Assembly (NCBI GenBank): GCA_949289005.1
Contig: CASEMQ010000007.1
Span: forward strand, 73,295-137,294
Length of the DNA: 64,000 nucleotides
Reading direction: 5' to 3'
Source: an uncultured Lentisphaeraceae bacterium
GTDB lineage: Bacteria > Verrucomicrobiota > Kiritimatiellia > RFP12 > DVOR01
Shown here: positions 12,600-54,700 of the stretch, one piece after another
Numbering within the stretch: the stretch's first letter is position 1
Layout of the letters: each line of letters opens with the position of its first letter
Position numbers and translations under genes: made by a program
The notes under the pieces: model-generated
The model's database searches: none
The model's input: only the letters and a program-made list of their open reading frames with translations
What the model was told of the DNA's origin: nothing

Positions 12600-12780
12600 C
12601 CGAACGTCCCGCTTTGGGACACGGCGTGTCGCGACCCGGGATGCGCCGTGTCTCGAGGGGAGGTACGCCGTGTCCCGGAAAATGACCCCGCTCCCTGATT
12701 GAAAAATGCCCTTTTGCCCCCCTCCGGGCCTCTCGCGCTTTCGACAGGTTTTCAACGGGTTTGCGAAAGTTATCGACAGG
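12600..12780 (+). repeat. Dispersed ~190 bp intergenic repeat element, copy 1 (three tandem ~22 nt units at approx 12621..12686, GATTGAAAA box, conserved 3' module GGTTTTCAACGGGTTTGCGAAAGTTATCGACAGG)
   Basis: Alignable by eye to the copies at 32281..32475, 42896..43080 (reverse) and 54510..54700 (reverse); lies about 90 nt upstream of ilvA. Confidence 0.8.
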
Positions 12781-12870
12781 ATGGCGCGGGCGGTCGTGGG
12801 GCGACGGAAGGAAACGCGAGGGGCGATTGTGCTATAGTAGTGGGGAAGTGAAAGAAGGGACGCAGTTGTT

Positions 12871-14079
12871 ATGTCGAAGCTGACGATTGAGAACATCCGC
12901 CATGCGGCCGAGGTTTTGCACGAGGTGGCGCGGAAGACCGATATGATTTTCGCGCCGAAACTGTCCACGAACGCGCAGGTGTGGCTGAAGACGGAAAACC
13001 TGCAGGTGACCGGCTCGTTCAAGGTGCGGGGGGCGTACTACAAGATTTCCAAACTGACGGACCAAGAGTTGGCGCGCGGCGTGATCGCGTGCAGCGCGGG
13101 CAACCATGCGCAGGGCGTGGCCTTGGGCGCGCAGCGGCGCGGGGCGCGCGCGGTGATTTGCATGCCGGATATCGCGCCCATCGCGAAAATCGAGGCCACG
13201 AAGAGTTACGGCGCGGAGGTGCACCTGGTGCCGGGGACGTACGACGACGCGAGCGCTTACGCGGCGAAGTTGTGCAAGGAGGAGGGGATGACCTTTGTGC
13301 ATCCCTTCGACGACCCGGACGTGATTGCGGGGCAGGGCACGGTGGGAATCGAGATTTTGGAGCAGTTGCCGGACGTGGATGCGGTGTTGGTGCCCATCGG
13401 CGGCGGCGGGCTGATCTCGGGCGTGGCCTATGCCATCAAGCACCTGAAGCCGACCTGCAAGGTCTATGGCGTGCAGGCCGCGGAGGCGCCGAGCATGAAG
13501 CGCTCGATCGAGGCGCAGGACAAGCTGACGCTCTCGACCGCGAACACGTTCGCCGACGGCATCGCGGTGAAGCATCCGGGCGACCTGACCTTTGAGCTGG
13601 TGAAGCGGTACGTGGATGGCATTGTGACGGTGTCGGAGGACGAAATCGCGGCGGCGGTGCTCTTCCTCATCGAGCAACGCAAGCTGGTCTGCGAGGGCGC
13701 GGGCGCGGTCTCGGTGGCGGCGATGATTTACGACAAGGTGCCGGGGCTGCACGGCAAGAAGGTGTGTTGCCTGCTTTCGGGCGGCAACATCGACGTGAAC
13801 ATCCTCAGCCGTGTGATTTACCGCGGTTTGCTGGCCAGCGGGCGGCGGGCGAGCATCAAGCTGTCGTTGCCTGACAAGCCGGGGCAACTGGCCATCGTGG
13901 CGGGCATCGTCTCGAAGTGCGGCGGCAACGTCATCAACGTGAGCTATGGCCCCTCGGGCGTGGACACGGCGTTGGCCAGTTGCGTGCTGAGCCTGGAGTT
14001 GGAGACGCGCGACTTTGAGCAGATCGGCGAGATCCACGGCGCGTTGGAGGCCGCGGGCTATCGGTTGATCCGGGAATGA
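12871..14079 (+). CDS. ilvA: Threonine ammonia-lyase (threonine dehydratase), PLP-dependent with C-terminal regulatory domain
   Basis: 402 aa; PLP-lysine motif TGSFKVRGA; glycine-rich PIGGGGLISG; C-terminal ACT-like domain. Confidence 0.8.
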   Translation: MSKLTIENIRHAAEVLHEVARKTDMIFAPKLSTNAQVWLKTENLQVTGSFKVRGAYYKISKLTDQELARGVIACSAGNHAQGVALGAQRRGARAVICMPDIAPIAKIEATKSYGAEVHLVPGTYDDASAYAAKLCKEEGMTFVHPFDDPDVIAGQGTVGIEILEQLPDVDAVLVPIGGGGLISGVAYAIKHLKPTCKVYGVQAAEAPSMKRSIEAQDKLTLSTANTFADGIAVKHPGDLTFELVKRYVDGIVTVSEDEIAAAVLFLIEQRKLVCEGAGAVSVAAMIYDKVPGLHGKKVCCLLSGGNIDVNILSRVIYRGLLASGRRASIKLSLPDKPGQLAIVAGIVSKCGGNVINVSYGPSGVDTALASCVLSLELETRDFEQIGEIHGALEAAGYRLIRE

Positions 14080-14098
14080 CGCCGGGGGGGACGACGCC

Positions 14099-14830
14099 GT
14101 GCTGACGCTGACGGGCGCAACTTTTCTCTACGCCGCGGATCGGGGCATTCGCGATGTTTCGTTGCGCGTGGCGCCGGGCGAGGTGGTGGGCGTGGTGGGG
14201 GCCAACGGCGCCGGCAAGAGCACGCTCTTGGGGTTGGCGGCCGCGGCGTTGGTGCCGCAGGCGGGGCGCGTCACGCTGGCGATCACGGATCTGGCCGGGC
14301 GCACGCGGCGCCTCCATTCCGACCAAGGCATCGGCTATCGCCGCCATGTGGGCTACCTGACGGAGCTGGCGCCGGTCTACGGCGAGATGCGCGTGAAGTC
14401 CTATCTCGCCTTTCGCGCGAAGTTGCGCGGGGTGGGCTTCATGCGGGTACGCGGCCGGGTGCGCGAGGCCATGCGGCGGTGCGGGCTCGGCGCGTGCCAG
14501 AAGGCGACGATCGGGACGCTGTCGCTGGGGATGCGGCGGCGCGTGGCATTGGCGGAGGCGTTGCTGACGTTGCCCCAAGTGCTGGTGCTGGACGACCCGT
14601 TCGCGGGGATCGACGCGGCGTTGCGCGCGGAGTTCGCGGAGGTGATTCGCGAGGTCGCCGCGCGGGCGCAGGTGCTCATCAGCGGGCATGACCCGCAGAT
14701 GTTGGCGGCGTGTTGCACGCGCTTCGCCCTCATCGAGAAGGGGCGGCTGGCGGCGGACGATCTGGATGCGCGGATGGCGTTGGCGCGGCTGACGGCGCCG
14801 GTGGCGCAGGCCGCGGGGAAGGGGGCGTGA
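14099..14830 (+). CDS. ABC transporter ATP-binding protein (ABC-2 exporter type)
   Basis: GTG start at 14099; Walker A GANGAGKST; divergent signature LSLGMRRR; Walker B LVLDDP. Confidence 0.7.
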   Translation: MLTLTGATFLYAADRGIRDVSLRVAPGEVVGVVGANGAGKSTLLGLAAAALVPQAGRVTLAITDLAGRTRRLHSDQGIGYRRHVGYLTELAPVYGEMRVKSYLAFRAKLRGVGFMRVRGRVREAMRRCGLGACQKATIGTLSLGMRRRVALAEALLTLPQVLVLDDPFAGIDAALRAEFAEVIREVAARAQVLISGHDPQMLAACCTRFALIEKGRLAADDLDARMALARLTAPVAQAAGKGA

Positions 14831-14833
14831 GCC

Positions 14834-15586
14834 ATGGTGTTTTGGACAATCCTGCGGCGCGAGGTCTTTCAGCTGTTTCGCTCGGTGCATGGGGTGGCGC
14901 CGCTTTTCTTGGCGCTGATGGGGGCGGGGGCGCTTTTTGTGGTGTTTCTCTATCGCGCGGAAGGGACGGCGGAGACGTTGCCGGCGCTCTGGGGGCTGGC
15001 GACGGCCTTCGGGCTGCCCTTTTTGGCGGCGGTGGCGGCCTCGCGCGGGTTCACGCAGGATCGCGAGGTGGGGATGCTGCGGCTGATGTTCGCGACGCCG
15101 GTGCGTGCGCGGTGGTGGGTGCTGGGCAAGGTCGCCGCGGCGTGGACGCTGTGCATGGTCTATGTGGGCGGCATGGGGCTGTCGTGCTGGGTGCTGACGC
15201 ATTGGCTGTTGCCGCCGGACGCTCAGGTTCCGGGGACGTGGCCGGGCTTTGGGCTGGCGGCGCTGGCGCTGGCGGCGCAGGCGTTGCTGTGGTGCGGGAT
15301 CGGGACGTTGGCCTCGTTGCTCTCGCGGAGTTCGGCCTCGACCTTTTTGGTGTCGTTGCTGACGTGCCTGTTGGCGCCGCCTTTGGCGTGGGCGGCGGTT
15401 TCGGCGGCGGTCGCCGGGCCGATGGCGCAGTGGCCGTGGTTCCCGCTTCAGACGGTGGTTTACGATTGCGCGGGGGGCGTGGTGGACATCCGGGCGCTCG
15501 TGGGTTGCGTGACGGGCGCCGCGGTGGTGATTTATGCCGCCGGCTTGGCCTTTGATGCCTTGCGGCTGTGCGCGACGGAGCGGTGA
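14834..15586 (+). CDS. ABC-2 family transporter permease
   Basis: 250 aa, 6 predicted TM segments; immediately downstream of the ATPase. Confidence 0.6.
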   Translation: MVFWTILRREVFQLFRSVHGVAPLFLALMGAGALFVVFLYRAEGTAETLPALWGLATAFGLPFLAAVAASRGFTQDREVGMLRLMFATPVRARWWVLGKVAAAWTLCMVYVGGMGLSCWVLTHWLLPPDAQVPGTWPGFGLAALALAAQALLWCGIGTLASLLSRSSASTFLVSLLTCLLAPPLAWAAVSAAVAGPMAQWPWFPLQTVVYDCAGGVVDIRALVGCVTGAAVVIYAAGLAFDALRLCATER

Positions 15587-16524
15587 TGGCGACTTCCGAT
15601 GCGGCCCTTCGCGAGAACTTGGCGCGCGCCTTCGCGGCGGGGCGCCCCGCGCAGGGTTATCTGATCGTCGGCCCGGTACGGCGCGAGGGGCGTGCGTTGG
15701 CGGAGTGGATCGGCGCGCAACTTTTGGGCGATGGGCCGACCATCGCGGAGCACGCGCACCCGGACATGCCGTGGTTCGAGCCGGAGAAGGTGAGCCGCAT
15801 CATCGGCGTGGACATGATGCGCGGGCGGATCTTGCCCTTGGCGCAGCAGAGTGCGCTCTCGGGCGGGTGGAAGGTGCTCGTCATCGTCTCGGCGGACCGG
15901 ATGCGCGCGGAGGCGGCGAACGCGTTTCTGAAGACGTTGGAGGAGCCGCCGCCGCAGACGTTGTTTTTGCTGTTGGTGGATTCGTTGGCGGAGGTCTTGC
16001 CCACCATCGTGTCGCGTTGCCAGGTAATCCAGGCGGGCGGCACGCGCGGGTTGGACGAGCCGTGGCGCACCCAGGTGCTGGAGTTGCTGGCGGGCATCGA
16101 TCGGAAGTCGGTGCTTTTGGACGCGGCGCGGGCGGATACGCTGTGCGCCATCCTGGAGGACATGGAGGCCGAGGCCGAGAAGTCCGTCCGCGAGGAGGCC
16201 AAGGACAATCGCTACGTGGAGGAGGATGCCGACACAATCAAGGCGTTGGTGGGGGCGAAGGCGAAGGCTTGGCGCACGGATTTGTTGCTGACGTTGGAGC
16301 AATGGATGCGCGACCTGCTCTGCCTGCGGGCCGCGGGCGAGGGTGCCGGGCCGCCGCTGGCGTTCCCGGGGCGGCGCGAGGCGTTGAGCCGCCGGGCGGC
16401 GGCGCACACCTTGGCGCACCTGGAGGAAAACCTGGCGATGCTGGAGACGCTTGCCACCCAGCTGGATCGCAACATCTCCCCCGCCCATATCCTGCCTTAT
16501 TGGATGGATCGCTTCTATTTGTGA
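15586..16524 (+). CDS. holB: DNA polymerase III subunit delta prime
   Basis: ATG at 15586 overlaps the upstream stop (TGATG); KTLEEPP and TIVSRCQ motifs of the clamp-loader delta-prime. Confidence 0.75.
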   Translation: MATSDAALRENLARAFAAGRPAQGYLIVGPVRREGRALAEWIGAQLLGDGPTIAEHAHPDMPWFEPEKVSRIIGVDMMRGRILPLAQQSALSGGWKVLVIVSADRMRAEAANAFLKTLEEPPPQTLFLLLVDSLAEVLPTIVSRCQVIQAGGTRGLDEPWRTQVLELLAGIDRKSVLLDAARADTLCAILEDMEAEAEKSVREEAKDNRYVEEDADTIKALVGAKAKAWRTDLLLTLEQWMRDLLCLRAAGEGAGPPLAFPGRREALSRRAAAHTLAHLEENLAMLETLATQLDRNISPAHILPYWMDRFYL

Positions 16525-16538
16525 AAGGAACCCGCACG

Positions 16539-16979
16539 ATGAAACTCTTGCTGCTCAATGGCCCCAACCTGCGCTTGCTCGGCACGCGGGAGCCTGATAT
16601 TTACGGCCGCTTCACGCTGGCGGACGCGGAGACGTTGGCGCGGCGGACGGCGGAGCGCCTCGGCGCCACGCTCGATTGCTTCCAGAGCGACATCGAGGGC
16701 GAGCTGGTCGCCAAGATCGGCGCGGCGCGCGGCGTTTACGATGGGCTTGTCATCAACCCCGCGGCCTACACGCACACGTCCGTGGCGTTGCGCGACGCCA
16801 TCGCGGCCAGCGAGTTGCCGGCGGTGGAGCTGCACATCTCCAACACGCATAAGCGCGAGGCCTTCCGCCACGTGTCGTACACGGCGCCGGTGTGCGTGGC
16901 GCAGTTGATGGGCTTTGGCCTGCAGGGTTATGCCTTGGCGGTGGAAGGGCTCGTCGCGCTGATTGGGGGGCACCGTTGA
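16539..16979 (+). CDS. aroQ: 3-dehydroquinate dehydratase, type II
   Basis: MKLLLLNGPNLRLLGTREPDIYG, HISN, and ~146 aa length typical of AroQ. Confidence 0.85.
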   Translation: MKLLLLNGPNLRLLGTREPDIYGRFTLADAETLARRTAERLGATLDCFQSDIEGELVAKIGAARGVYDGLVINPAAYTHTSVALRDAIAASELPAVELHISNTHKREAFRHVSYTAPVCVAQLMGFGLQGYALAVEGLVALIGGHR

Positions 16980-17665
16980 TGGAGGCGCTCGTGGATGGCG
17001 TGAACGCGCTGGCCGCGTTGGTGCCGGCCTATCTGTTGGGTGCCATTCCCTTCGGCCTGCTGATTGGCAAGGCGCGGGGCGTGGATGTCCGGGAGGTGGG
17101 CAGCCGCAACATCGGCGCGACCAACGTGTTCCGGTGCGTGGGCGCGGGGTGGGGGGTGTTGGCCTTCGCGCTGGATCTGCTCAAGGGCGTGGGCGGCGTC
17201 TGGTGCGCGGCTATCCCGCTGCTGTGGGGGGCGGCTTGGGGCGCGGGCGACGGACTGCTCCTGCGCGTGCTCTGCGGCACGGCGGCGATGTTGGGGCATA
17301 TCTTCCCGATTTGGCTCGGCTTCCGCGGGGGCAAGGGCGTCTCGACCGCGTTGGGGCTCTTGCTCGGGGTGGCGCCGCTGGCGGGCGTGATAGGCTTCGG
17401 GTGCTGGCTGGCGGTCTTTGGCATCGGCCGCTTCGTCTCGCTGGCCAGCTGCCTGGCGGCCGTGGCGGTGGGGGCGACCGTCTGGACGCCGCTCTACGCG
17501 GAACGCCCGCTTTGGTTCGCGATTTTGATCACGGCGTTGGCCGTGCTGGCCATCGTCAAGCACCGGGCAAACCTGGCGCGGCTCGTCCGCGGGCAGGAGA
17601 ACCGTTTCGCCTTCACCGCCGCCCAGCGCGCCGCGCGGGCCGCCAAACAGGAGAACCGTCCATGA
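16979..17665 (+). CDS. plsY: Glycerol-3-phosphate acyltransferase PlsY
   Basis: Start overlaps the aroQ stop (TGATG); SRNIGATNVFR, FRGGKGV motifs; multi-TM. Confidence 0.8.
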   Translation: MEALVDGVNALAALVPAYLLGAIPFGLLIGKARGVDVREVGSRNIGATNVFRCVGAGWGVLAFALDLLKGVGGVWCAAIPLLWGAAWGAGDGLLLRVLCGTAAMLGHIFPIWLGFRGGKGVSTALGLLLGVAPLAGVIGFGCWLAVFGIGRFVSLASCLAAVAVGATVWTPLYAERPLWFAILITALAVLAIVKHRANLARLVRGQENRFAFTAAQRAARAAKQENRP

Positions 17666-18651
17666 ACATTGCCGTCATCGGGGATGGAGGCTGGGGCACG
17701 GCCACGGCCATGCTGTTGGAGGCGCGCGGACATGCCGTCACCGTCTGGGGGCCCTTCGCGGAGTACATCGACGAGATTCGCGCCACGCGCCGCAACCCGC
17801 GCTACCTGCCTGGCCCCGAACTGCCGGAAGGCATCCGCTGGACGGCCGACCTGCGCGAGGCCGTGCCGGGCGCGGACGTGGTGGTGCTGGCCATTCCCTC
17901 GAAGTTCTACCGCACTGTCTGCGCGCAGCTCGCGCCCCATCTCGATGTGCGCCGCGCGCTTGTCGTCAGCCTCACCAAGGGCGTCTGCCCCGAGACCCAC
18001 CAGCGCATGAGCGAGGTGGCCAAGGCCCTGCTCGGGACCGATCGCGTGGTCGTCCTCTCGGGCCCCTCCCACGCCGAGGAGGTCGCCCGTGGCATTCCCA
18101 CCGCCGTGACCTGCGCCTGCGAGAACCACGCCTTGGCCATCGAGACGCAACGTCTCTTCAACGGTCCGCGCTTTCGCGTCTACACCACCGACGACGTGCT
18201 GGGCGTGGAGATCGGCGGCGTGGTCAAGAACGTCCTGGCCATCGCCGTGGGCGCCAGCGACGGTTTCGGCTTCGGCGACAACACCCGCGCCGCGCTCATC
18301 ACCCGCGGTCTGGCCGAGATGATGCGCCTGGGGCTGCGCCTGGGCGCCAAGCCGCAGACGCTGAGCGGGCTGGCCGGCGTGGGCGACCTCATCGTCACCT
18401 GCACCTCCAAGCACAGCCGCAACCATGCCGTCGGCGAGCGCCTTGGCCGCGGCGAGGCCATCGGCGACATCCTGGCCTCCATGAAGATGGTCGCCGAAGG
18501 CGTGGACAACGCCCGCCTTTTGCACGACCTGGCCCAGGAGCACGGCGTGGAAATGCCCATCGCCGAGGTCGTCTACCGCATTTGCCACCAAGGCCTCCCC
18601 GCCAAGGATGCCGTCCTCCTCCTTATGGAGCGCACCGCCAAGCCCGAGTGA
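17662..18651 (+). CDS. gpsA: NAD(P)H-dependent glycerol-3-phosphate dehydrogenase
   Basis: ATGA overlap with plsY; Rossmann motif IAVIGDGGWGTA; GpsA-like ALITRGLAEM. Confidence 0.8.
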   Translation: MNIAVIGDGGWGTATAMLLEARGHAVTVWGPFAEYIDEIRATRRNPRYLPGPELPEGIRWTADLREAVPGADVVVLAIPSKFYRTVCAQLAPHLDVRRALVVSLTKGVCPETHQRMSEVAKALLGTDRVVVLSGPSHAEEVARGIPTAVTCACENHALAIETQRLFNGPRFRVYTTDDVLGVEIGGVVKNVLAIAVGASDGFGFGDNTRAALITRGLAEMMRLGLRLGAKPQTLSGLAGVGDLIVTCTSKHSRNHAVGERLGRGEAIGDILASMKMVAEGVDNARLLHDLAQEHGVEMPIAEVVYRICHQGLPAKDAVLLLMERTAKPE

Positions 18652-20048: not shown

Positions 20049-20050
20049 CG

Positions 20051-30579: not shown

Positions 30580-31976
30580 CCCGCTACACCGACGTTGCCT
30601 GCGATTCACGCCGGGTCACCCCCGGCGCCCTTTTTGTCGCCATCCCCGGCACCCACGACGACGGCGCCCGCCACATCGCCGAGGCCCGCGCCCGCGGCGC
30701 CGCCGCCGTCATGGGCGCCGCCCCCGAATGCGACATCCGCGTGGCCGACCCCCGCGCCGCCTTCGCCGAAGCCTGCGCCGAACACTTCGGCCGCCCCTCC
30801 GAGAAACTCCTCCTCTGCGGCATCACCGGCACCAACGGCAAAACCACCACCGCTTGGCTCCTGCGCGACATGCTCGCCCAAGCCGGCCTCAACCCCGGTC
30901 TCCTCACCACCGTCCGCGAACAATGGCCCGGCCACGACGCCCCCGCCGACCGCACCACCCCCGACGCCCACACCCTCCAGTCCGCCCTCGCTCAAATGGT
31001 TGCCGCCGGCTGCCGCGCCGCCGTCATCGAAGTCTCCAGCCACGCCATCGACCAAGCCCGCGTCGGCGCCTGCCGTTTCGCCCTCACCGCCTTCACCAAC
31101 CTCACCCAAGACCACCTCGACTACCACAAAACCATGGAGGCCTACTTCGCCGCCAAAGCCCGCCTCTTCCTCGAACACCCCGAAGCCTCCGCCATCATCA
31201 ACGCCGACGACCCCTACGGCCGCCGCCTCCTCACCCGCCTCGCCGACCGCCCCAACCTCTTCCCCTACGCCCCCTCCGCCATCCCCGCCACCCTCACCCC
31301 CGCCGGCACCGACGCCACCCTCACCTTCGGCACCAGCCGCCTCGCCTTCCACACCACCCTTGCCGGCCGCTACAACCTCGCCAACATCCTCTGCGCCGCC
31401 ACTGCCGCGCACGCACTCGGCGCCACCCCGGATGCCATCCTCTGCGCCATCGCCAACGCCAAGCCCAAATGGGGCCGCCTCCAACCCATCGCCCCACACA
31501 TCTTCGTCGACTACGCCCATACCGACGACGCCCTCACCAACGTCCTCGCCACCCTCCGCACCCTCACCACAGGCCGCCTCATCTGCGTCTTCGGCTGCGG
31601 CGGAGACCGCGACCGCGCCAAACGCCCCAAAATGGCCGCCGCCGTCGACCGCGCCGCCGACCTCGCCATCGTCACCACCGACAACCCTCGCACCGAGGCC
31701 CCCCTCGCCATCATCGCCGACATCCTCCCCGGTTTCACCCGCCACACCCCACTCGTCGAGCCCGACCGCCGAGCCGCCATCCGCCGCGCACTCGCCCTGC
31801 GCCAAAACGACGACATCGTCCTTGTCGCCGGAAAAGGCCACGAAACCTACCAGGAAATCAACGGCATTCGCCACCCCTTCTCCGATGCCGACGAAATCCG
31901 CGCCGCCCTCACCCCATGCCCCCACCCAATCGTACCCAGAGCGCCGAACGTTGCCGATCGAACTCCCGGAAGATGA
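30576..31976 (+). CDS. murE: UDP-N-acetylmuramoyl-L-alanyl-D-glutamate--2,6-diaminopimelate ligase
   Basis: ITGTNGKTTT P-loop, DYAHTDDAL, Mur ligase three-domain layout; 466 aa. Confidence 0.8.
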   Translation: MTRYTDVACDSRRVTPGALFVAIPGTHDDGARHIAEARARGAAAVMGAAPECDIRVADPRAAFAEACAEHFGRPSEKLLLCGITGTNGKTTTAWLLRDMLAQAGLNPGLLTTVREQWPGHDAPADRTTPDAHTLQSALAQMVAAGCRAAVIEVSSHAIDQARVGACRFALTAFTNLTQDHLDYHKTMEAYFAAKARLFLEHPEASAIINADDPYGRRLLTRLADRPNLFPYAPSAIPATLTPAGTDATLTFGTSRLAFHTTLAGRYNLANILCAATAAHALGATPDAILCAIANAKPKWGRLQPIAPHIFVDYAHTDDALTNVLATLRTLTTGRLICVFGCGGDRDRAKRPKMAAAVDRAADLAIVTTDNPRTEAPLAIIADILPGFTRHTPLVEPDRRAAIRRALALRQNDDIVLVAGKGHETYQEINGIRHPFSDADEIRAALTPCPHPIVPRAPNVADRTPGR

Positions 31977-32039
31977 GGAACGACCACGCGATTGTCCTTT
32001 CCCCCAACACGGCGGGCGCGATGGCGTCCGGGCGATAAC

Positions 32040-32259
32040 CTTCTCCCTCTTCCGCGGTTATCTTGCGCAACTTATCGAATACGGCAAGAAGTTTCCAATT
32101 ATCGGCAATCAGAACGCCATCATCTACAAAGAAACCTTCTTGCTCCTTCAACAAGACAAGGTTTGGTTGGGGTATCACTTTGGGGACATGGCCTTCAAGA
32201 TTCCTGACTATTACGAATGCCGCGCGGCGACGTGGGGCTTTTTCGTTTGCAGGTTGTGA
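32040..32259 (+). pseudogene. Low-GC (about 45%) 3' gene remnant without a start codon
   Basis: The in-frame tail ...LFRGYLAQLIEYGKKFPIIGNQNAIIYKETFLLLQQDKVWLGYHFGDMAFKIPDYYECRAATWGFFVCRL* has codon usage unlike the rest of the window; no ATG/GTG start before the stop at 32257..32259. Confidence 0.4.
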
Positions 32260-32280
32260 AGGCATAAAGCGGGCAAGTGG

Positions 32281-32475
32281 CGGACGTTTTCGACAGGCGG
32301 GGCGTTTTGGAACGCGGCGTGTCCCGGGGGGAGAGACGGCGTGTCTCGATGGGAGGTACGGCGCGTCTCGAAAAACGACCCCGCGTATAGATTGAAAACG
32401 TGGTTTTTGGCCTCTGTCGGCCCCGTCCGTTCTCAACAGGTTTTCAACAGGTTTCGCAAAGTTATCGACAAGCCT
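32281..32475 (+). repeat. Dispersed ~190 bp intergenic repeat element, copy 2
   Basis: Same module order as copy 1: three tandem units (cgcggcgtgtcccgg..., acggcgtgtctcgatgggaggt, acggcgcgtctcgaaaaa), GATTGAAAAC box, then 3' module CAACAGGTTTTCAACAGGTTTCGCAAAGTTATCGACAAG. Confidence 0.8.
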
Positions 32476-32507
32476 GCGGAATGCGGTGGGGGGCGGTCCG
32501 GGGCGCC

Positions 32508-42895: not shown

Positions 42896-43080
42896 ATGTC
42901 GGGCCTGTCAATAACTTTGCGAAATCCGTTGAAAACCTGTTGAAGGAGGGTAGGGCCGGAGGCGCCCCAAAACAACTTTTTCAATCAGGGAGCGGGGTCG
43001 TTTTTCGAGACACGCCGTATCGCGTCTTGAGACGCGGCGTGTCTCGGCACGAGGTGCGCCGTATCGTTCGCCGGGGTTGC
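42896..43080 (-). repeat. Dispersed ~190 bp intergenic repeat element, copy 3 (reverse orientation)
   Basis: Its reverse complement has the tandem acggcg..gtctcg units, GACCCCGCTCCCTGATTGAAAAA and CAACAGGTTTTCAACGGATTTCGCAAAGTTATTGACAGG. Confidence 0.8.
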
Positions 43081-43214
43081 CCGGCGGATCTTTCGGGAAA
43101 TGGGGTTCCCAACGGTCCGGGCACGCATTCGTTCTATGGCGTTGCGCCGTTTTCCTCCGGCTCTCCGTCGCCCGAATGGGGCGTTCGCTGTCCGCTGTTT
43201 ACTGTTCATTCATT

Positions 43215-43223
43215 TGTTATAAT
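43215..43223 (+). promoter_or_regulatory. Candidate extended -10 element TGTTATAAT in an AT-rich patch upstream of glnS
   Basis: Perfect TGnTATAAT 31 nt upstream of the glnS ATG; a local AT-rich island in a 70% GC genome. Confidence 0.4.
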
Positions 43224-46663: not shown

Positions 46664-46666
46664 CCG

Positions 46667-49020: not shown

Positions 49021-49107
49021 CGTTGGCCGGTCGCGGCGGGTGTGCGTTGTGGGTGTGCGCTGTGGTATACTATCGGGATTCGTGAAACGAAGGAAGGAAG
49101 CCGAAGC

Positions 49108-50424
49108 ATGACACAGTTGGAAGCCGCCCGTTCTGGAATTGTCACCGAGGCCATGCGTGCCGTTGCCGCCGACGAGGGGCTGACGGGTGAGGCCGTGTGC
49201 GAGGCGGTGGCCTCCGGGCGTGCCGTCATCCCGCTCAATCCTGCGCATAAGGGGGTGCGGCCGACGGGGGTGGGGCGGATGTTCACCACGAAGATCAACG
49301 CGAACCTGGGGCGTTCGCCCACGCGTTCGGGCAAGGGGGACGAGCTGGACAAGTTGCAGGTGGCGTTGGACGCAGGGGCGCAGTTTGTGATGGATTTGTC
49401 TGTGGGGACGGGCAAGGGCGCGGAGGAGATTCGCGCGGAGTTGCGTGACATCCGGCAGGGCATGCTGGAGCGTTCGCCGGCGCCGTTGGGCACCGTTCCG
49501 GTCTATGAGACGATTTCGCGGCTGGATGGCGAAATTCCGGAGATGGACCCGGCGTATCTGCTGGACGTGATCCGCGAGCAGGCCGAGCAGGGCGTGGACT
49601 TCATGACGTTGCACGCGGGTTTGGTCCGCGCCAATTTGCCGTTGGCCGACGGTCGCAAAATGGGCATTGTCTCGCGCGGCGGCGCCATCATGGCTGAGTG
49701 GATGCGCCGCCACAACGCCGAGAACCCGCTCTATGCCCATTGGGACGAGGTGATGGACATTTTGGCCGAGCACGACGTGACGGTCTCGTTGGGCGATGGC
49801 CTGCGCCCGGGATGCCTGGCGGACGCGGGCGACGATGCGCAGTATGCGGAGCTGGCGGTGCTTGGCGAGCTGGTGCGGCGGTGCCGCGCGCGGGGCGTCC
49901 AGGCGATGGTCGAGGGGCCTGGCCATGTGCCCTTCAACCAAATCCGCGAGCAGATGGAGCGCGAGCAGGAATTGTGCGACGGCGCGCCTTTCTATGTGTT
50001 GGGCCCGATCGTGACGGACATCGCGGCGGGTTACGACCACATCGCCTCGGCCATTGGGGCCACGGCGGCCGCCACCTATGGCGCCTCCTTGCTGTGCTAC
50101 GTAACGCCCGCCGAGCACCTCGGCCTGCCCGACGCCTCGGAGGTTCACCAAGGGTGCGTCGCCCACCTCATCGCCGCCCATGCGGGCGATGTGGCGCGTG
50201 GCTTGCCGGGTGCCCGCGCGCGGGATGACCGCATGGCGCAGGCGCGATATGACTTCGACTGGAAGGCGCAGTTCGAGCAGGCGCTCGACCCTTGCACCGC
50301 GCGTGAGCGGTGGCTGCGCACGCGCGCCGAGAACGGCGCCGCGTTGGACGACGACCATTGCTCGATGTGCGGCAAGGCCTTCTGCGCCGTCCGCACCACC
50401 AAGCGCATGCGCCAGGGTTTATAA
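49108..50424 (+). CDS. thiC: Phosphomethylpyrimidine synthase
   Basis: ATG at 49108 with SD aaggaagga; radical-SAM-like ThiC C-terminal CSMCGKAFC; 438 aa. Confidence 0.85.
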   Translation: MTQLEAARSGIVTEAMRAVAADEGLTGEAVCEAVASGRAVIPLNPAHKGVRPTGVGRMFTTKINANLGRSPTRSGKGDELDKLQVALDAGAQFVMDLSVGTGKGAEEIRAELRDIRQGMLERSPAPLGTVPVYETISRLDGEIPEMDPAYLLDVIREQAEQGVDFMTLHAGLVRANLPLADGRKMGIVSRGGAIMAEWMRRHNAENPLYAHWDEVMDILAEHDVTVSLGDGLRPGCLADAGDDAQYAELAVLGELVRRCRARGVQAMVEGPGHVPFNQIREQMEREQELCDGAPFYVLGPIVTDIAAGYDHIASAIGATAAATYGASLLCYVTPAEHLGLPDASEVHQGCVAHLIAAHAGDVARGLPGARARDDRMAQARYDFDWKAQFEQALDPCTARERWLRTRAENGAALDDDHCSMCGKAFCAVRTTKRMRQGL

Positions 50425-50440
50425 GTCGACAGAGACTAGC

Positions 50441-50530
50441 GAACAGTGAACGGTGCGTCCCTCCGGGGCGACAGGTCAATCTCCTGAACGGAGACGCATC
50501 CGTCGCCCGAGGGGCGTTCCGTTCACTGTT
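50441..50530. terminator. ~90 nt nested inverted repeat between convergent thiC and the GNAT gene
   Basis: Outer arms aacagtgaacgg / ccgttcactgtt; inner hairpin acgga-gacgca-tccgt; the right arm overlaps the GNAT stop codon. Confidence 0.5.
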
Positions 50531-50969
50531 TGGACAGCGCCAGGTGGAGGATGGGGTGGGGGCGACCGGCGGGGTCGCGGGGGTCGCGGGCGGCGATGGC
50601 GAAGCCGTTGGCTTGGTAGAAGGCGAGGGCGGGGGGATTTTCCTCGTTCACGTCCACGGTTCGCGCGCCCTCGGCGAGGGCTTGGCGCAGGAGGCGCGTG
50701 CCGAGGCCGCGGCGGAAGAGGGATGGGTCGATGAAGAGGGCCTCGATGTGGGTGCCGTTTTGCGCCAGGAAACCGAGTGGCGTGCCCTCGACGCGCAGGA
50801 CGAGCGGATTGATGGCCGCGAGCATGCCGCGCACTTGTGGGGCATAGAGGGCGATTTCGTCCTCGGAGACGAAGGCGTGGGTGGCGCGGACGGCGCGTTC
50901 CCAGACGGCGGCGAGGGCGTCCACGGGCGGGGAGGGTTCGTGGGCGATGGCGGGCGAGTCGGTGTCCAT
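50523..50969 (-). CDS. GNAT family N-acetyltransferase
   Basis: Internal ATG at 50969 gives a 148-aa protein with acetyl-CoA-binding motif RRGLGTRLLRQAL; the upstream Arg/Pro-rich extension is rejected. Confidence 0.65.
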   Translation of the reverse strand: MDTDSPAIAHEPSPPVDALAAVWERAVRATHAFVSEDEIALYAPQVRGMLAAINPLVLRVEGTPLGFLAQNGTHIEALFIDPSLFRRGLGTRLLRQALAEGARTVDVNEENPPALAFYQANGFAIAARDPRDPAGRPHPILHLALSKQ

Positions 50970-51016
50970 GTGGGTTTCCTTGGGGCGGTTTTTGGGGGCG
51001 GGGCGCGTGAAAAGTC

Positions 51017-54000
51017 TCAGGCGAGGAGGTCCTCGATCTCGGCCATGGTGAGGGAGGAGGCGATGGAGGCGTCGGACGCGTTGACGGTGGCTTCGATGAG
51101 CGCCTGCTTTTTGCGTTGGAGGTCGAGCACTTTTTCCTCGATGGTGTCCTGGGCGATGAGTTTGATGGCCTGGACGGTCTTTTTCTGGCCGATGCGGTGG
51201 GCTCGGTCGGTGGCCTGTTCCTCGGCGGCGGGGTTCCACCAAGGGTCGAAGTGGACGACGGTGTCCGCGCCGGTGAGGTTGAGCCCGGTACCGCCGGCCT
51301 TAAGGGAGATAAGGAAGGCGGGGATGGAGGGGGTTTGGTTGAAGCGGGCGCACTGCCCGAGGCGATCTTTGGTGGCACCGTCCAGATAACAATAGGCGAG
51401 GCCCTCGGCGTCGAGGCGATCGGCGATGAGGCGGAGCATCGAGGTGAATTGCGAGAAGACGAGCAGGCGGTGGCCGCCCGCGATCGTCTCGTCCAGGAGT
51501 TCCATCAACGCGTCCAGTTTGGCGGAGGGCGCCTCGCCGGGGCGCGGGGGGCGATTCTTGATCAGGCGCAGGTCGCAGCAGACTTGCCGTAGGCGCATGA
51601 GTAGGGCCAAGACCTCGAACTTGGACTTCTCAAAGCCTTTTTCGCGCACGAGGCCGCGCATTTTCTCGCGCAGTTCGGCGCGATAGTCCTCGTAGAGGCG
51701 GCGCTGGTCGGGGGTGAGCGCGCAGTAGGTGACGGAGCGGATTTTGTCGGGCAGGTCGTTGGCGACCTCTTTTTTGACGCGGCGCAGGAGGAAGGGGTGG
51801 AGTTTTTCGCGCAGGAGGCGTTGGGCGTTCTCCGCGGCCTGGCCACCCTCGGCGATGGGCATCTCGTAGCGGATTTGGAAATCCTCGTAGGGGCCGAGGT
51901 AGCGCGGCATCAGAAAGTCCATGATGGACCAGAGGTCGGAGACGCCGTTCTCGATGGGCGTGCCGGAGAGGACGAGGCGGGTGTCGGCCACCAAGCGCTT
52001 GACGGCCTGGGCGTTTTGCGTGCGTTGGTTTTTGATGGCCTGCGCCTCGTCGAGCACCGCCACGGAATAACGGCAATCGGCATGGAAGGCGATGTCGCGC
52101 CGGATGAGCGCGTAGCTGGTGATGACGAGGTCGTGATCCGGCACTTGCGCGAAGAGGGGGGCGCGGTCGGGCCCGGAGAGTGTCAGCACCTTTAGCCACG
52201 GTGTGAACTTGGCCGCCTCGCGCCGCCAGTTCTCGACCAACGAGGTGGGGCAGACGATCAGGGCGGGTACGCGGCGGGCATCCGCGCGGCAACGCTCCAG
52301 TTGGAGCCACGTCAGTGTCTGCAAGGTCTTGCCCAGACCCATCTCGTCGGCCAAAATCCCGCAGAAGCCACATTCCTCCAGGAAGCGCAGCCAGTAGACG
52401 CCCTCCTTCTGGTAGGGGCGGAGCGTGTCTTCCAGGCGGCCGAGGGGGACGGGCTCGGGGCGACGGCGACGGTTCTGCCGCTCCGCGCGCGCCCGCCAAT
52501 CGGGCGCCGTCTCGAAGTCGATGCCGTCCAGCCGCTCCAACGCCGCTTGCACGAAGGGCGCGTGCACGGCCTCGACGCGCACCGAGCCCTCCACCGTGCC
52601 GCGCCGCGCCTGGCACGCGGCCAATGTCTCGCGCAACGCGCGGATGGCCCCGATGTCCAGCAGCGCCGTGTGGCCGCCGCAATCGACGAATGCCTCGTGC
52701 GCGGCGAGCGCGCGGTCGACTTCGGCGGGGGAGAGACGCAGGTTGCCGTTGGCCGAGACGTAGTCCGCGGCGACTTCGAAGCCATCCTTGGCATTGCGCA
52801 CGCGCACCACGGGCACGATGACCTCGGCGTTCTCCCAGAAGGTGGCCAAGAGGCCCTTCACCTCCACCTTCCAACCCTCGCGGCGGAGGGCGGTGAGGTG
52901 TTCGCCCAAGAGGTTGCGCACGTTGCGGATGCCTGTGAGCGCGCCTAAATCGTCCCCCCGCGCCGCGGGGAAGCCCATTGCCCGCATCCGCGCCAACGCC
53001 TCCTTCTCGGCGGTCTCGTTGCGGCCGAAGCTGTGGTAGAAATCGTCCGGGTCCGGCAGGGCCACCGTCTCGTGGCCGCCCGCCGGCAACCAGTCCTCGC
53101 CGTAACCCGCGAAGAGCCGGGCCGCCACCGACACCTCAGAACCGTTCAGGACCAATCGGAAACGCGGTTCGGCCGGTGTGACGGAGAAGCAATCCGCCGG
53201 GACGCACCGTTCCGGATCCGGCGGCGCCCATGCCGCCAACTTGGGCACCTCGCGGGTGAGGAAGTCCACCGCCCGTGCCCGCGGCACAGCCTCGGGCTTC
53301 GCGTAGAGCCCCTGGAGCGGCGCGGGCAGGACGTGCGCGAGCCGCCGGGCTTCGCCATGCTCGCCCAGCCAGTAGGCGGCGTGGCCGGCGGCCAGCACCA
53401 CCCCGCCGGGCGGCAATTCCAGCGACACGCGGAGCGCGTCGTTCGCCGGGTCGGCCTCCACCGCCAACGGCGTCTCCAACGGCTCCTTGAGCACGCGCAG
53501 GCGGCGGCGCGTCGCGCCATCGCCCACCCAGCTCCCCGTCCCGCACCGGATCACCGCCAGGAAGTCCGCCGGCGACAACTCCAACGTGTCGCCGAAGGCG
53601 CCCCCCGCGATGTCCTCGAAAATCCCGATCAGCGCGTTGTCCGCCTCCGAGAAGGCGTGGTCGACCGGCGGCAAATCCTGTGGGCGATAGGGCTTGCCCT
53701 CAACGTAGAGGCGCACGCCCACGCGCACGCGGCCGGCGGCGAACTGCCGGGCCGCCTCGGCGGGGAGGAAGACGCGGAGCAAGGCGGGGCGCCCTGTCGG
53801 CGCGCGGCGGATCAGCCCCGTGGCGGCTGCCAGGCGCGCGGCGTGGGCGCGGTCGCTCGCCGCGGCCTGCCGGCGCGCCTCGCCCCCGAAGAGGCGCATG
53901 ACGCCGAGCGCCACCGCGATGACGTGCTCGCAGAGCAGGCCGCGGTCGCGGTTGGTCGCGCAAGGGCAATGCCCTTCCACCAAGCCATTCTTGAGCATCG

Positions 54001-54493
54001 TGAAGGTCGCCAGGATGGGCGCCCCGCCGCTCAGCACGTAACCCTTGCCCGTGGGGTAGGCGAAGGCCAGGCGCGACACCGCCCCGCGCCGCACGAGCTC
54101 TTCCGCCCGCGCCAAGAGTTGCGGCCCCGCCCAACGCGCGATCTCCAGGCGCGTGGGGGCGCGCTCCGCCGCGAAAAGCGTCTCTTCCGGCGTGTCGCCG
54201 CCGTGATCGTGCGCCCATTGCAACCCCACCGCGACCGCGTGGCGGCAGACTTTGCCGCCCTTTGCCGCGCCGCATGGGCACAGTACCTCCACCGCGCGCC
54301 CCTCACGCACGCGCAACCGCGTGACCAACCGCGACGCCCCCATCCGCACCGAGCCCGCCAAAAGTTCCCCTTGCGCCCGCACGCCCTGCACGGCGCCGGA
54401 TGCCTGCAACTTCGCACCCTCCGCAAGCACGTCCGAGGGCGCCCATCTCATCACCTGTCCACGCGACAAATCCATGTCGGGAAAGTTTACCAT
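51017..54493 (-). CDS. SNF2-family helicase with N-terminal SWIM zinc finger
   Basis: SWIM CPCGAAKGGKVCRHAVAV; SNF2 N-domain LADEMGLGKT, DEAQAIKN; helicase-C block near the C-terminus. Start set at ATG 54493 because the longer ORF to 54769 would read through the repeat element. Confidence 0.7.
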   Translation of the reverse strand: MVNFPDMDLSRGQVMRWAPSDVLAEGAKLQASGAVQGVRAQGELLAGSVRMGASRLVTRLRVREGRAVEVLCPCGAAKGGKVCRHAVAVGLQWAHDHGGDTPEETLFAAERAPTRLEIARWAGPQLLARAEELVRRGAVSRLAFAYPTGKGYVLSGGAPILATFTMLKNGLVEGHCPCATNRDRGLLCEHVIAVALGVMRLFGGEARRQAAASDRAHAARLAAATGLIRRAPTGRPALLRVFLPAEAARQFAAGRVRVGVRLYVEGKPYRPQDLPPVDHAFSEADNALIGIFEDIAGGAFGDTLELSPADFLAVIRCGTGSWVGDGATRRRLRVLKEPLETPLAVEADPANDALRVSLELPPGGVVLAAGHAAYWLGEHGEARRLAHVLPAPLQGLYAKPEAVPRARAVDFLTREVPKLAAWAPPDPERCVPADCFSVTPAEPRFRLVLNGSEVSVAARLFAGYGEDWLPAGGHETVALPDPDDFYHSFGRNETAEKEALARMRAMGFPAARGDDLGALTGIRNVRNLLGEHLTALRREGWKVEVKGLLATFWENAEVIVPVVRVRNAKDGFEVAADYVSANGNLRLSPAEVDRALAAHEAFVDCGGHTALLDIGAIRALRETLAACQARRGTVEGSVRVEAVHAPFVQAALERLDGIDFETAPDWRARAERQNRRRRPEPVPLGRLEDTLRPYQKEGVYWLRFLEECGFCGILADEMGLGKTLQTLTWLQLERCRADARRVPALIVCPTSLVENWRREAAKFTPWLKVLTLSGPDRAPLFAQVPDHDLVITSYALIRRDIAFHADCRYSVAVLDEAQAIKNQRTQNAQAVKRLVADTRLVLSGTPIENGVSDLWSIMDFLMPRYLGPYEDFQIRYEMPIAEGGQAAENAQRLLREKLHPFLLRRVKKEVANDLPDKIRSVTYCALTPDQRRLYEDYRAELREKMRGLVREKGFEKSKFEVLALLMRLRQVCCDLRLIKNRPPRPGEAPSAKLDALMELLDETIAGGHRLLVFSQFTSMLRLIADRLDAEGLAYCYLDGATKDRLGQCARFNQTPSIPAFLISLKAGGTGLNLTGADTVVHFDPWWNPAAEEQATDRAHRIGQKKTVQAIKLIAQDTIEEKVLDLQRKKQALIEATVNASDASIASSLTMAEIEDLLA

Positions 54494-54509
54494 ATTTCCA
54501 TCCCATCCA

Positions 54510-54700
54510 GACCTGTCGAAAACTTTGCGAAACCTGTTGAAAACCTGTTGAGACCGCCTCGCCCCGGAGGCACCCGAAATCCGGCTTTTCAATCTATACG
54601 CGGGGTCATTTTCCGGGATGCGCCGTATCTCCCCCCGAGGCACGCCGCATCCCGCATCGAGGCACGCCGCGTCCCGGGACGCGGCGGCCGCGGGGCTTTC
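54510..54700 (-). repeat. Dispersed ~190 bp intergenic repeat element, copy 4 (reverse orientation), ending 17 nt upstream of the helicase start
   Basis: Its reverse complement has three tandem units (ggacgcggcgtgcctcgatgcgg, gatgcggcgtgcctcggggggagat, acggcgcatcccggaaaa), GACCCCGCGTATAGATTGAAAAG and CAACAGGTTTTCAACAGGTTTCGCAAAGTTTTCGACAGG. Confidence 0.8.

What the first reader, a model, noticed from the sequence alone, without database searches (positions are those of the whole stretch)
12600..54700. A ~190 bp intergenic repeat family with internal iteron-like tandem units occurs four times in 64 kb
Four intergenic elements share one modular architecture: copies at 12600..12780 (+), 32281..32475 (+), 42896..43080 (-) and 54510..54700 (-). 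Each has (i) three head-to-tail ~21-22 nt units of approximate consensus ACGGCGTGTCYCG-rgGGGAGrt, (ii) a GACCCCGC..GATTGAAAA box, (iii) a ~40 nt variable spacer, and (iv) a nearly invariant 3' module CAACAGGTTTTCAACAGGTTTCGCAAAGTTATCGACAGG that itself holds a short direct repeat (TGTTGAAAACCTGTTGA). They fall in different contexts: upstream of ilvA, next to a low-GC gene remnant, between nnr and glnS, and immediately upstream of the SWIM-SNF2 helicase. The triple tandem units resemble iterons or arrayed binding sites for a DNA-binding protein, while the conserved 3' module could be a small structured RNA or a MITE terminus. This is not CRISPR (only three units, no uniform spacers) and not a known REP or BIME consensus that I recognise.
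Basis: seen in the sequence. Interest (0 to 1): 0.7.

Follow-up and report, generated by a model that had tools for sequence, protein, structure and literature searches.

The report
Lineage-specific modular intergenic repeat (MITE-like)
The four look-alike ~180-bp intergenic segments are real copies of a new, non-coding, probably transposon-derived repeat family found only in a narrow group of uncultured gut Lentisphaerota; this is an ordinary kind of bacterial genome feature with an unusually orderly internal build.

Summary
Observation confirmed. Four ~178-bp copies (12607-12784 +, 32301-32477 +, 42900-43074 -, 54508-54684 -) each match a joint profile at E~1e-51. The host is a 66.6% GC metagenomic Lentisphaerota close to Ca. 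Spyradenecus.

The element is non-coding, has no Rfam match and no promoter or terminator. Only the 22-nt unit array has excess fold potential.

The family is clade-restricted. Pattern scans of GTDB representative genomes, JGI metagenomes and IMG/VR found nothing, and sister species lack it at the ilvA locus. At least 16 further copies exist in ENA/Logan assemblies.

The 3' module is a phased array of an 11-nt motif (TTWTCRACAGG) ending in ...ACA. In about a third of copies the same motif sits inverted at the other end (5'-TGT...), which gives terminal inverted repeats. Strain differences:
- Unit number varies (3 or 4).
- One copy (c2) lies in a strain-specific replaced intergenic segment carrying a foreign methylase fragment.
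- Two copies (c1, c4) are present in every strain sampled.

Blocks conserved across copies evolve about 4-10 times slower than variable columns and flanks.

Best reading: an old MITE-like, BOX-like non-autonomous repeat made of phased protein-binding sites, possibly co-opted by the host. No target-site duplication and no parent transposase were found. Moderate-to-low interest.

The parts
12607..12784 (+). Copy c1, core element. Unit cores at 12621-33, 12643-55, 12665-77. Box 12684-12705. Spacer. Three M motifs at 12738-48, 12749-59, 12770-80.
   Evidence: nhmmer E=1e-51; pattern hits. Present at the same site in all 7 strain contigs fetched.
12583..12593 (-). Inverted M-like motif left of c1. 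Read as a terminus, TGTTGACAACTT matches the right-end reverse complement TGTCGATAACTT at 10 of 12 positions.
   Evidence: Motif scan; sequence read directly. My estimate of a chance match of this quality within 60 nt is about 0.01.
32301..32477 (+). Copy c2, core element. Unit cores at 32314-26, 32336-48, 32358-70. Box 32377-98. M motifs at 32430-40, 32441-51, 32462-72.
   Evidence: nhmmer E=6e-54; TRF period 22 and period 11. Absent from three other strains.
32287..32297 (+). Extra solo M motif (TTTTCGACAGG) in direct orientation, 17 nt before the first unit core of c2.
   Evidence: Exact match to the motif.
31905..32504 (.). Strain-specific intergenic block holding c2 and a low-GC fragment of an EcoRI-like adenine methylase (32041-32229). 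Other strains have 133 bp between the two genes here, unrelated in sequence.
   Evidence: Alignment of the window with L115, L116 and L117; Pfam PF13651, E=7e-22, profile positions 148-212 of 345.
42900..43074 (-). Copy c3, core element. M motifs at 42904-14, 42925-35, 42936-46. Box 42978-99. Unit cores at 43006-18, 43028-40, 43050-62.
   Evidence: nhmmer E=5e-51; pattern hits.
43104..43115 (+). Weak inverted M-like motif on the unit side of c3 (GGTTCCCAACGG against CCGTTGAAAACC, 83% complementary).
   Evidence: the repeat finder pair I2; marginal.
54508..54684 (-). Copy c4, core element. M motifs at 54512-22, 54533-43, 54544-54. Box 54586-54607. Unit cores at 54614-26, 54636-48, 54658-70.
   Evidence: nhmmer E=3e-52. 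Present in all 10 strain contigs fetched. One strain (L105) carries a fourth 22-nt unit.
12830..12838 (+). Extended -10 (TGCTATAGT) of the ilvA promoter, 50 nt beyond the end of c1's last M motif and outside the element.
   Evidence: Read from the sequence. The same promoter is kept in a sister species that lacks the element (L113).
54484..54492 (-). Extended -10 (TGGTAAACT) of the SNF2 helicase promoter, 19 nt after the end of c4.
   Evidence: Motif TGNTAWAMT found 6 times against 0.57 expected.
43215..43223 (+). Extended -10 (TGTTATAAT) of the glnS promoter, about 140 nt from the unit side of c3.

Best explanation
This is a family of ~180-200-bp non-coding, non-autonomous interspersed repeats of the MITE / BOX-element kind. 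It is confined to a narrow clade of uncultured gut Lentisphaerota near Ca. Spyradenecus.

Each copy is built almost entirely of helically phased short repeats:
- Right end: three copies of an 11-nt motif M (TTWTCRACAGG), spaced 11 and 21 nt apart, ending in ...ACA.
- Left end, in roughly a third of copies: one or two inverted M motifs beginning 5'-TGT. Together these form terminal inverted repeats with several subterminal sites.
- Interior: three (sometimes four) tandem 22-nt quasi-palindromic units, of which units 2 and 3 form a 17-pair imperfect palindrome.
- Interior: a GACCCC-N7-GATTGAAA box with two alleles.
- Interior: a fast-evolving ~36-nt spacer.

Inferred mechanism: the M motifs are binding sites for a transposase encoded elsewhere. 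From my own knowledge, 5'-TG...CA-3' ends with multiple subterminal sites are typical of DDE enzymes of the IS21, Mu, Tn7 and Tn402 groups. This enzyme once spread the element through intergenic DNA.

The copies in the window are old and mostly fixed. Because the conserved blocks are still evolving much more slowly than their surroundings, the sites are probably still bound or used. That could mean the host has co-opted them as protein-docking arrays next to promoters, or that gene conversion among copies keeps them uniform.

Shown: the repeat family, its anatomy, non-coding status, clade restriction, unit-number variation, one polymorphic copy, and site-specific constraint. Inferred: transposition, and the identity of whatever binds.
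For: Family and anatomy.

More copies elsewhere: translating the open reverse frame retrieved two spurious ORFs whose contigs hold new DNA copies, c5 (L107) and c6 (L108). A full HMMER scan then found 14 more ORFs at E<=1e-12 that carry the same conserved stretches.

Assembly behaviour: two Logan contigs stop inside the 3' module (L001 and L096). The ORF-bearing contigs are mostly 1-4 kb. Both fit a multi-copy repeat.

Terminal inverted repeats:
- c6 has two inverted M motifs directly left of the units.
- c1 has one, matching 10 of 12 positions.
- P0129, P0130, P0131 and P0135 encode YRQV(I/M)(D/N)-type peptides just past the units, which back-translate to TATCGACAGGTTATTGAC.
- Conservation stops sharply at CC|TGTCGATAAC on the right in nearly all copies.

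Non-coding: no 3-nt periodicity, and one 1-nt indel.

All 6 copies seen as DNA are intergenic, next to unrelated genes and in both orientations.

Clade restriction: 0 hits in GTDB representatives, JGI metagenomes and IMG/VR. There is no copy in about 55 kb around ilvA in relatives with 88-91% identical IlvA. A sister species keeps the ilvA promoter without the element.

Variation between strains: a 22-nt unit gain in L105; c2 absent from three strains.

Constraint: ortholog substitutions hit 2/78 and 1/78 family-invariant columns against 23/101 and 19/101 other columns (Fisher 6e-5 and 1.6e-4). Flanks differ by 2.6-10.7%, pooled 7.3% by my own sum of the counts. Third codon positions differ by 4.5-7.5%.
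Against: - No target-site duplication is visible at c1 or c6 (sequence read directly).
- An inverted M motif is clear in only 2 of the 6 DNA copies. It is weak in c3 and c4, absent in c5, and in direct orientation in c2.
- No transposase gene lies in the window or the fetched loci, so no autonomous partner is known.
- The one presence/absence polymorphism (c2) is a replacement of the whole intergenic region, not a clean insertion. It does not prove transposition.
- Slow evolution of the conserved blocks at fixed loci is not expected for a purely selfish, dead element.
- The peptide-based evidence for inverted repeats rests on back-translation.
Confidence: 0.5

Rival explanations
1. A host cis-acting module that never moved by transposition. 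It would be an array of phased sites for a transcription factor or nucleoid-associated protein, spread by recombination and kept because it tunes or insulates neighbouring promoters. Candidates include an OmpR/PhoB-type response regulator on the 11-nt direct repeats, or a dimeric regulator on the 22-nt palindromic units.
For: - Strict 11-, 21- and 22-nt phasing.
- The reverse complement of the 3' module reads as four ~11-nt CTGTYGAnAAC direct repeats. From my own knowledge this resembles a Pho-box layout.
- Five of the 6 DNA copies lie 19-140 nt from an extended -10 promoter.
- The conserved blocks are under site-specific constraint at fixed loci.
Against: - The neighbouring genes share no function: ilvA, glnS, a SNF2 helicase, an ACT/DUF711 pair, and a gene I only guessed to be rpiB-like.
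- The element faces either way relative to them.
- c2 lies between two convergent gene ends, where there is no promoter to serve.
- The whole ~180 bp is shared, including non-site spacer, which is unlike a regulon.
- A sister species has the same ilvA promoter without the element.
Confidence: 0.2
2. A structured RNA element: either a multi-copy small RNA, or a REP-like hairpin that stabilises or terminates neighbouring transcripts.
For: - The unit array folds better than shuffled sequence (z = -2.1 to -6.3 in all six copies).
- Units 2 and 3 form a 17-pair helix that is 93% paired across 8 sequences, against 58% or less when the partner is slid.
- Three pairs show changes on both sides.
Against: - No Rfam match, even at E<=10.
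- No promoter-like or terminator-like site was found around c1, the one copy scanned, and I saw none on reading the others.
- The remaining ~100 nt has z about 0 on both strands.
- Covariation is not above the shuffle control (28/500 and 47/500). My own 2x2 tally from 20 copies gives Fisher p of about 0.09; it was counted by hand from the peptides.
- Copies lie upstream of the neighbouring promoters and on either strand, so no consistent transcript would contain them.
Confidence: 0.1
3. Relics or decoys of a plasmid or phage replication origin. The 22-nt units would act as iterons and the M motifs as DnaA-box-like sites (TTATCGACA matches TTATCCACA at 8 of 9 positions), titrating a Rep protein or DnaA.
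For: The architecture is right: 3-4 units of 22 nt, a relatively A/T-rich stretch, and three 9-mers resembling DnaA boxes, all within about 180 bp. From my own knowledge this order resembles the pSC101, P1 and F origins. c2 sits beside a fragment of foreign DNA.
Against: - No rep gene is next to any copy; housekeeping genes lie on both sides.
- There are many chromosomal copies, and c1 and c4 are fixed across strains.
- M departs from the DnaA box at the normally invariant C.
- There is no similarity to any plasmid or phage record.
Confidence: 0.05

Closest known systems
BOX elements of Streptococcus pneumoniae (boxA - n x boxB - boxC)
   Same: Both are small, non-coding, intergenic, multi-copy and modular. 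Both have conserved end modules and an internal tandem module whose copy number varies between strains (here 3 or 4 units). Both are open in a reading frame without being genes. BOX properties are taken from PMC3049150.
   Different: There is no sequence relationship, and the host phylum differs. The internal unit here is 22 nt, whereas boxB is about 45 nt by my own recollection. The end module here is itself an 11-nt phased repeat. TIRs and TSDs are established for BOX but only partly seen (TIR) or not seen (TSD) here.
Bacterial MITEs (for example Correia/NEMIS, RUP, ERIC)
   Same: Shared features are size, non-coding nature, intergenic location, many diverged copies, a lineage-restricted distribution, inverted terminal motifs in a subset of copies, and internal palindromic potential.
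   Different: No TSD and no parent IS were identified. The left inverted repeat is missing or displaced in most DNA copies. The interior is a tandem array rather than one long hairpin.
Ends of IS21, Mu, Tn7 and Tn402-type transposons (own knowledge; not tested)
   Same: Both have 5'-TG...CA-3' termini and two to four copies of a short transposase-binding repeat near each end, arranged asymmetrically between the left and right ends.
   Different: The binding repeats in those elements are about 19-22 bp long, and the ends flank transposase genes. Here the repeat is 11 nt (or 2 x 21 nt), no transposase is known, and no sequence similarity was shown.
REP / BIME elements of proteobacteria
   Same: Both are short GC-rich imperfect palindromes, repeated in intergenic DNA and able to form hairpins.
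   Different: The units here are head-to-tail at a fixed 22-nt period rather than in alternating orientation. They lack a GTAG head, no RAYT gene was seen, and they carry an additional A/T-rich phased tail.
Iteron-type plasmid origins (pSC101, P1, F, R6K)
   Same: Both have 3-4 direct repeats at 22-nt spacing plus DnaA-box-like 9-mers within about 200 bp.
   Different: No adjacent rep gene is present. There are many chromosomal copies at unrelated housekeeping loci, and the 9-mers deviate from the DnaA box.

Membership tests
MITE (miniature inverted-repeat transposable element) | Small (under ~500 bp), non-coding, multiple dispersed copies | tested here: met
   ~178-200 bp. No codon periodicity. 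There are 4 copies in the window, 2 more as DNA, and 14 more seen as ORF translations.
MITE (miniature inverted-repeat transposable element) | Terminal inverted repeats | tested here: inconclusive
   Clear in c6 (two inverted M motifs) and c1 (10 of 12). Implied by peptides in 4 more copies. Weak in c3 and c4, absent in c5, and direct in c2.
MITE (miniature inverted-repeat transposable element) | Target-site duplication flanking the element | tested here: not met
   The flanks of c1 (CGACT / GGATG) and c6 (CGATT / GGTTT) do not match. The copies are old (63-76% identity), so decay cannot be excluded.
MITE (miniature inverted-repeat transposable element) | Clean empty site in a related genome | tested here: inconclusive
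   c2 is absent from three strains, but the whole intergenic region is replaced. Sister-species ilvA loci lack the element, but their upstream synteny differs.
MITE (miniature inverted-repeat transposable element) | Autonomous partner with the same ends and a transposase | not testable with these tools
   There is no transposase in the window or the fetched loci. The whole genome is not available, and the collection scans and look-ups were exhausted.
BOX-type modular repeat | Conserved end modules around a tandem internal module of variable copy number | tested here: met
   The 22-nt unit array has 3 copies, and 4 in strain L105. The box and the 3' module are conserved.
BOX-type modular repeat | Sequence homology to boxA, boxB or boxC | not tested
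   No BOX sequences were compared. The different phylum and 66% GC content make homology implausible.
REP/BIME | 20-40-nt palindromic units with a conserved GTAG head, in alternating orientation, associated with a RAYT gene | tested here: not met
   The units are all in one orientation at 22-nt steps. On reading the unit sequences I saw no GTAG head. No Y1-transposase gene lies in the window.
Rfam RNA family | Match to a curated covariance model | tested here: not met
   Only two tRNAs reach gathering score in the window. At E<=10 nothing approaches any family's gathering score.
Iteron plasmid origin | Iterons next to the cognate rep gene, one origin per replicon | tested here: not met
   Housekeeping genes flank every copy. 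There are 4 copies in 64 kb.
CRISPR array | Repeats of 23-50 nt separated by unique spacers of similar length | tested here: not met
   The period is 22 nt: a 13-nt core plus a 9-nt semi-conserved linker, in 3-4 units.

The most novel reading that the evidence does not exclude
The element is not just a dead transposon relic. It would be a selection-maintained, multi-protein docking site that this Lentisphaerota lineage has domesticated. Two kinds of phased sites (22-nt palindromic units and 11-nt M repeats) would assemble a nucleoprotein complex next to promoters. That complex could act as a chromosome-architecture or insulator element, or as an iteron-like decoy that titrates the replication or transposition protein of an invading plasmid, phage or transposon.
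Probability: 0.12. Interest if true: 0.65.

Novelty: new member of a known kind. Interest (0 to 1): 0.33.

Why it matters
If it holds, it adds the first described interspersed repeat family for the poorly known, uncultured gut Lentisphaerota.

Practical uses:
- It explains why assemblies of these genomes break in intergenic DNA.
- It gives a strain-typing marker, through unit number and the presence or absence of c2.

The element is built almost wholly from helically phased repeats, and its conserved blocks are still under constraint. That makes it a tractable case for asking whether a transposon-derived repeat has been co-opted as a protein-binding platform. It does not overturn anything known about bacterial repeats.

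Tried and rejected
**Known RNA.** Rfam at gathering score and at E<=10 gave nothing.

**Searches of public collections for more copies.**
- Two different exact-pattern scans of GTDB representatives, JGI metagenomes and IMG/VR gave 0 hits.
- BLASTN of the c2 block against plasmids and phages found no match.
- The methylase fragment found no relative in IMG/VR.
- A 2103-aa query made by joining the translated frames of six copies (the four reverse-frame segments searched left out) scored nothing. Only the reverse-frame profile worked.
- A literature search for the motif strings returned only primers and other unrelated sequences, judging by titles.

**Coding mini-gene.** The reverse frame is open in 5 of 6 copies. 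However, there is no codon periodicity and c1 has a 1-nt indel. Rejected.

**Promoter or terminator inside the element.** The consensus scan around c1 found none. Reading all the copies by eye, I found no sigma-70, sigma-54, ECF or FliA-like pair that was conserved. Rejected.

**T-box or leader RNA for ilvA or glnS.** The orientation is wrong at glnS, there is no Rfam hit, and the element also sits at a helicase gene. Rejected.

**Orientation tied to replication direction (as with KOPS or Chi).** Cumulative GC skew shows no inflection between c2 and c3. Rejected.

**Conserved hairpin in the variable spacer.** A stem is present in c1, c2 and c3 but not in c4. Dropped.

**Covariation in the unit 2/3 palindrome.** Suggestive but not significant (plus my hand tally from peptides).

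**Target-site duplications.** None seen.

**Paralogy of the two 1250-aa ORFs.** One is a beta-galactosidase. The other is the SNF2 gene with a spurious N-terminal extension running through c4. The equal length is a coincidence.
Full report
**Observation.** Read directly, each shows the same order of parts:
- three unit cores (ACGSCGTGTCYCG) at exact 22-nt steps;
- GAAAAYGACCCCGC, then one of two 5-mers (TCCCT or GTATA), then GATTGAAAA;
- a spacer of about 36 nt;
- TCRACAGGTTTTCAACRGRTTT(CGC/GCG)AAAGTTWTYGACAGG.

A profile built from the four copies recovers exactly these four in the 64-kb window, at E = 6e-54 to 5e-51. The 3' module pattern and the box pattern each occur four times, against 0.00 and 0.18 expected by chance. 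TRF reports period 22 for the units and period 11 inside the 3' module. Pairwise identity among the four is 68-76%. Refined cores are 12607-12784 (+), 32301-32477 (+), 42900-43074 (-) and 54508-54684 (-).

**Host and gene contexts.** The window is 66.6% GC. Its GlnS is 87% identical to that of a Ca. Spyradenecus MAG (Lentisphaerota), the closest GTDB representative. That genus has been reported from chicken, pig and horse gut.
- c1 lies between a PP-loop-like gene and a threonine dehydratase gene.
- c2 lies between a Mur ligase gene and a convergent DUF2851 gene, beside a 63-residue fragment of an EcoRI-type methylase.
- c3 lies between nnr and glnS, pointing away from glnS.
- c4 lies directly upstream of a SNF2 helicase gene and is divergent from a 238-aa gene.

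The other window genes I checked are housekeeping genes, and no transposase or integrase is present.

**What it is not.**
- No known RNA family. Rfam gives only two tRNAs at gathering score, and nothing near threshold at E<=10.
- No consensus promoter or terminator in the region around c1, the one copy scanned.
- Not coding. A reverse-strand frame is open in most copies. However, variation shows no 3-nt periodicity and c1 carries a 1-nt indel.
- Mostly unstructured. Only the unit array folds better than shuffled sequence (z -2.1 to -6.3). The other ~100 nt has z about 0 on both strands.
- Units 2 and 3 do form a 17-pair imperfect palindrome. It is 93% paired across eight sequences, against 58% or less for slid controls. 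Compensatory change does not exceed the shuffle control (28/500). My hand tally over 20 copies gives p of about 0.09.
- GC skew shows no replication landmark that would explain the + + - - orientations.

**Distribution.** Exact-pattern scans of GTDB representative genomes, JGI metagenomes and IMG/VR found nothing with either of two patterns. Plasmid and phage BLASTN also found nothing.

More copies turned up by an indirect route. The open reverse frame, used as a protein profile, hit two spurious ORFs. Their contigs hold new DNA copies: c5 (L107) and the more divergent c6 (L108). A full HMMER scan of 1.84 billion representative proteins then found 14 further ORFs at E<=1e-12. These carry the same conserved stretches (PVDNFxKxVENLL ... 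FQS[GS|IR|IQ]GVVFRDxPYL..RH..S). All come from ENA or Logan metagenome assemblies, mostly on 1-4-kb contigs. Both alleles of the 5-mer box occur throughout, about 9 to 11 by my count across the 20 copies.

Two Logan contigs (L001, L096) end inside the 3' module. That is expected of a repeat that breaks assemblies.

Relatives with 88-91% identical IlvA have no copy in about 55 kb around ilvA. These genomes are 47.6%, 68.8% and 70% GC. One sister species keeps the same ilvA promoter (GATGTGCTATAGT) without the element.

**Strain comparisons.**
- c1 is present in all 7 contigs from other samples, and c4 in all 10.
- One strain (L105) has four units at c4 through an exact 22-nt duplication.
- c2 is absent from three strains. 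There the Mur ligase and DUF2851 genes are separated by 133 bp that do not align with the window's roughly 590-bp block (31905-32504). That block holds the methylase fragment and c2. This is a whole-segment replacement, so it links c2 to foreign DNA without proving transposition.
- Between orthologous copies, substitutions avoid the columns that are invariant among the six paralogs. The counts are 2/78 and 1/78 in invariant columns, against 23/101 and 19/101 elsewhere (Fisher 6e-5 and 1.6e-4).
- Flanks differ by 2.6-10.7%, pooled 7.3% by my own sum of the counts. Third codon positions differ by 4.5-7.5%.
- The conserved blocks are therefore constrained in place, or kept uniform by gene conversion. 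Conversion would also explain the clustered changes in the spacer.

**Ends.** The 3' module consists of three copies of an 11-nt motif M (TTWTCRACAGG) spaced 11 and 21 nt apart. It can equally be read as two 21-nt repeats, 14 of 21 positions identical by my own manual alignment. Outside the elements M is rare in the window. Conservation stops sharply after ...GACA(GG), both in the DNA copies and in nearly all the ORF translations (CC|TGTCGATAAC on the other strand).

Inverted M motifs occur on the far side of the units in these copies:
- c6 has two, directly adjacent to the units.
- c1 has one: TGTTGACAACTT against TGTCGATAACTT, 10 of 12.
- c3 and c4 have weak ones.
- P0129, P0130, P0131 and P0135 imply them through peptides that back-translate to TATCGACAGGTTATTGAC.

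In c2 the extra M is in direct orientation, and c5 has none. All inferred termini read 5'-TGT...ACA-3'. I found no target-site duplication.

**Interpretation.** The best-supported reading is an old, non-autonomous, MITE-like interspersed repeat with a BOX-like modular build. It has end modules made of repeated short sites, presumably for a transposase acting in trans. It also has an internal tandem array that changes length by slippage, and a fast-evolving spacer.

From my own knowledge, TG...CA termini with several subterminal binding repeats recall the IS21, Mu, Tn7 and Tn402 types of transposon end. That is a lead, not a test. The in-place constraint and the promoter-proximal positions leave room for co-option as a host protein-binding platform. 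Extended -10 motifs lie 19-140 nt away in five of the six DNA copies.

The rival readings are weaker, for the reasons set out with each:
- a pure host regulatory module;
- a structured RNA;
- origin-like iteron relics.

**Verdict.** The element is a new family of a known kind of bacterial repeat, and is of moderate-to-low general interest.

Noticed in passing
L113 about 4850-4960 and L114 about 1650-1750 (sister species, 70% GC): Four tandem ~21-nt units, each containing the palindrome AAACCCTAAGGGTTT, lie about 80 nt upstream of a TTTGCTATACT promoter. This is an unrelated phased palindrome array. It suggests such arrays are a recurring feature of intergenic DNA in this clade.
   Followed up: no
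window 32041-32229 (+), inside the block 31905-32504: A low-GC fragment of an EcoRI-type adenine methylase (Pfam E=7e-22, profile positions 148-212 of 345) sits in a strain-specific replacement of the Mur ligase / DUF2851 intergenic region. The last ~20 codons of the Mur ligase gene also differ between strains.
   Followed up: partly
L106 1-949 (ENA ERZ16268227 scaffold_1193), corresponding to window ~54087: In one strain the SNF2 helicase gene is cut about 400 bp after its start and continues into unrelated DNA. That DNA carries an Xre-type HTH gene preceded by a long A/T-rich palindrome (TACACGTCATAATATAACATGTTATGATATGACGTGT). This could be an insertion or an assembly chimera.
   Followed up: partly
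window 6701, 35536, 43215, 47337, 49063, 54484; also 12830: The extended -10 motif TGNTAWAMT occurs 6 times against 0.57 expected. All of these sites lie just upstream of genes or a tRNA. No clear -35 element is visible, which suggests that promoters in this lineage rely on the extended -10.
   Followed up: partly
L109/L110 (ENA ERZ26859199 NODE_1, 532 kb): A relative whose IlvA is 88% identical has only 47.6% GC, against 66.6% in the window. That is a very large shift in base composition between fairly close relatives.
   Followed up: no
protein P0140 (74 aa, from the representative library): A low-GC ORF with the repeated peptide KNPIENF(E/W)KPIENL weakly matches the translated M-repeat module (E=1e-4). 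It may reflect an analogous phased repeat in a low-GC organism.
   Followed up: no
window 12561-12573: A stray unit-like 13-mer (ACGGCGTGCGGCG, 3 mismatches) lies 60 nt upstream of the first unit of c1, outside the putative left terminus. It could be chance, since about 42 such matches are expected per window.
   Followed up: partly
window 32214-32250 (+): A small GC hairpin followed by a T-run (GCCGCGCGGCGACGTGGGGCTTTTTCG) lies between the methylase fragment and c2. It gave a weak ctRNA_p42d match (18 bits, E=0.21), far below that family's threshold.
   Followed up: no
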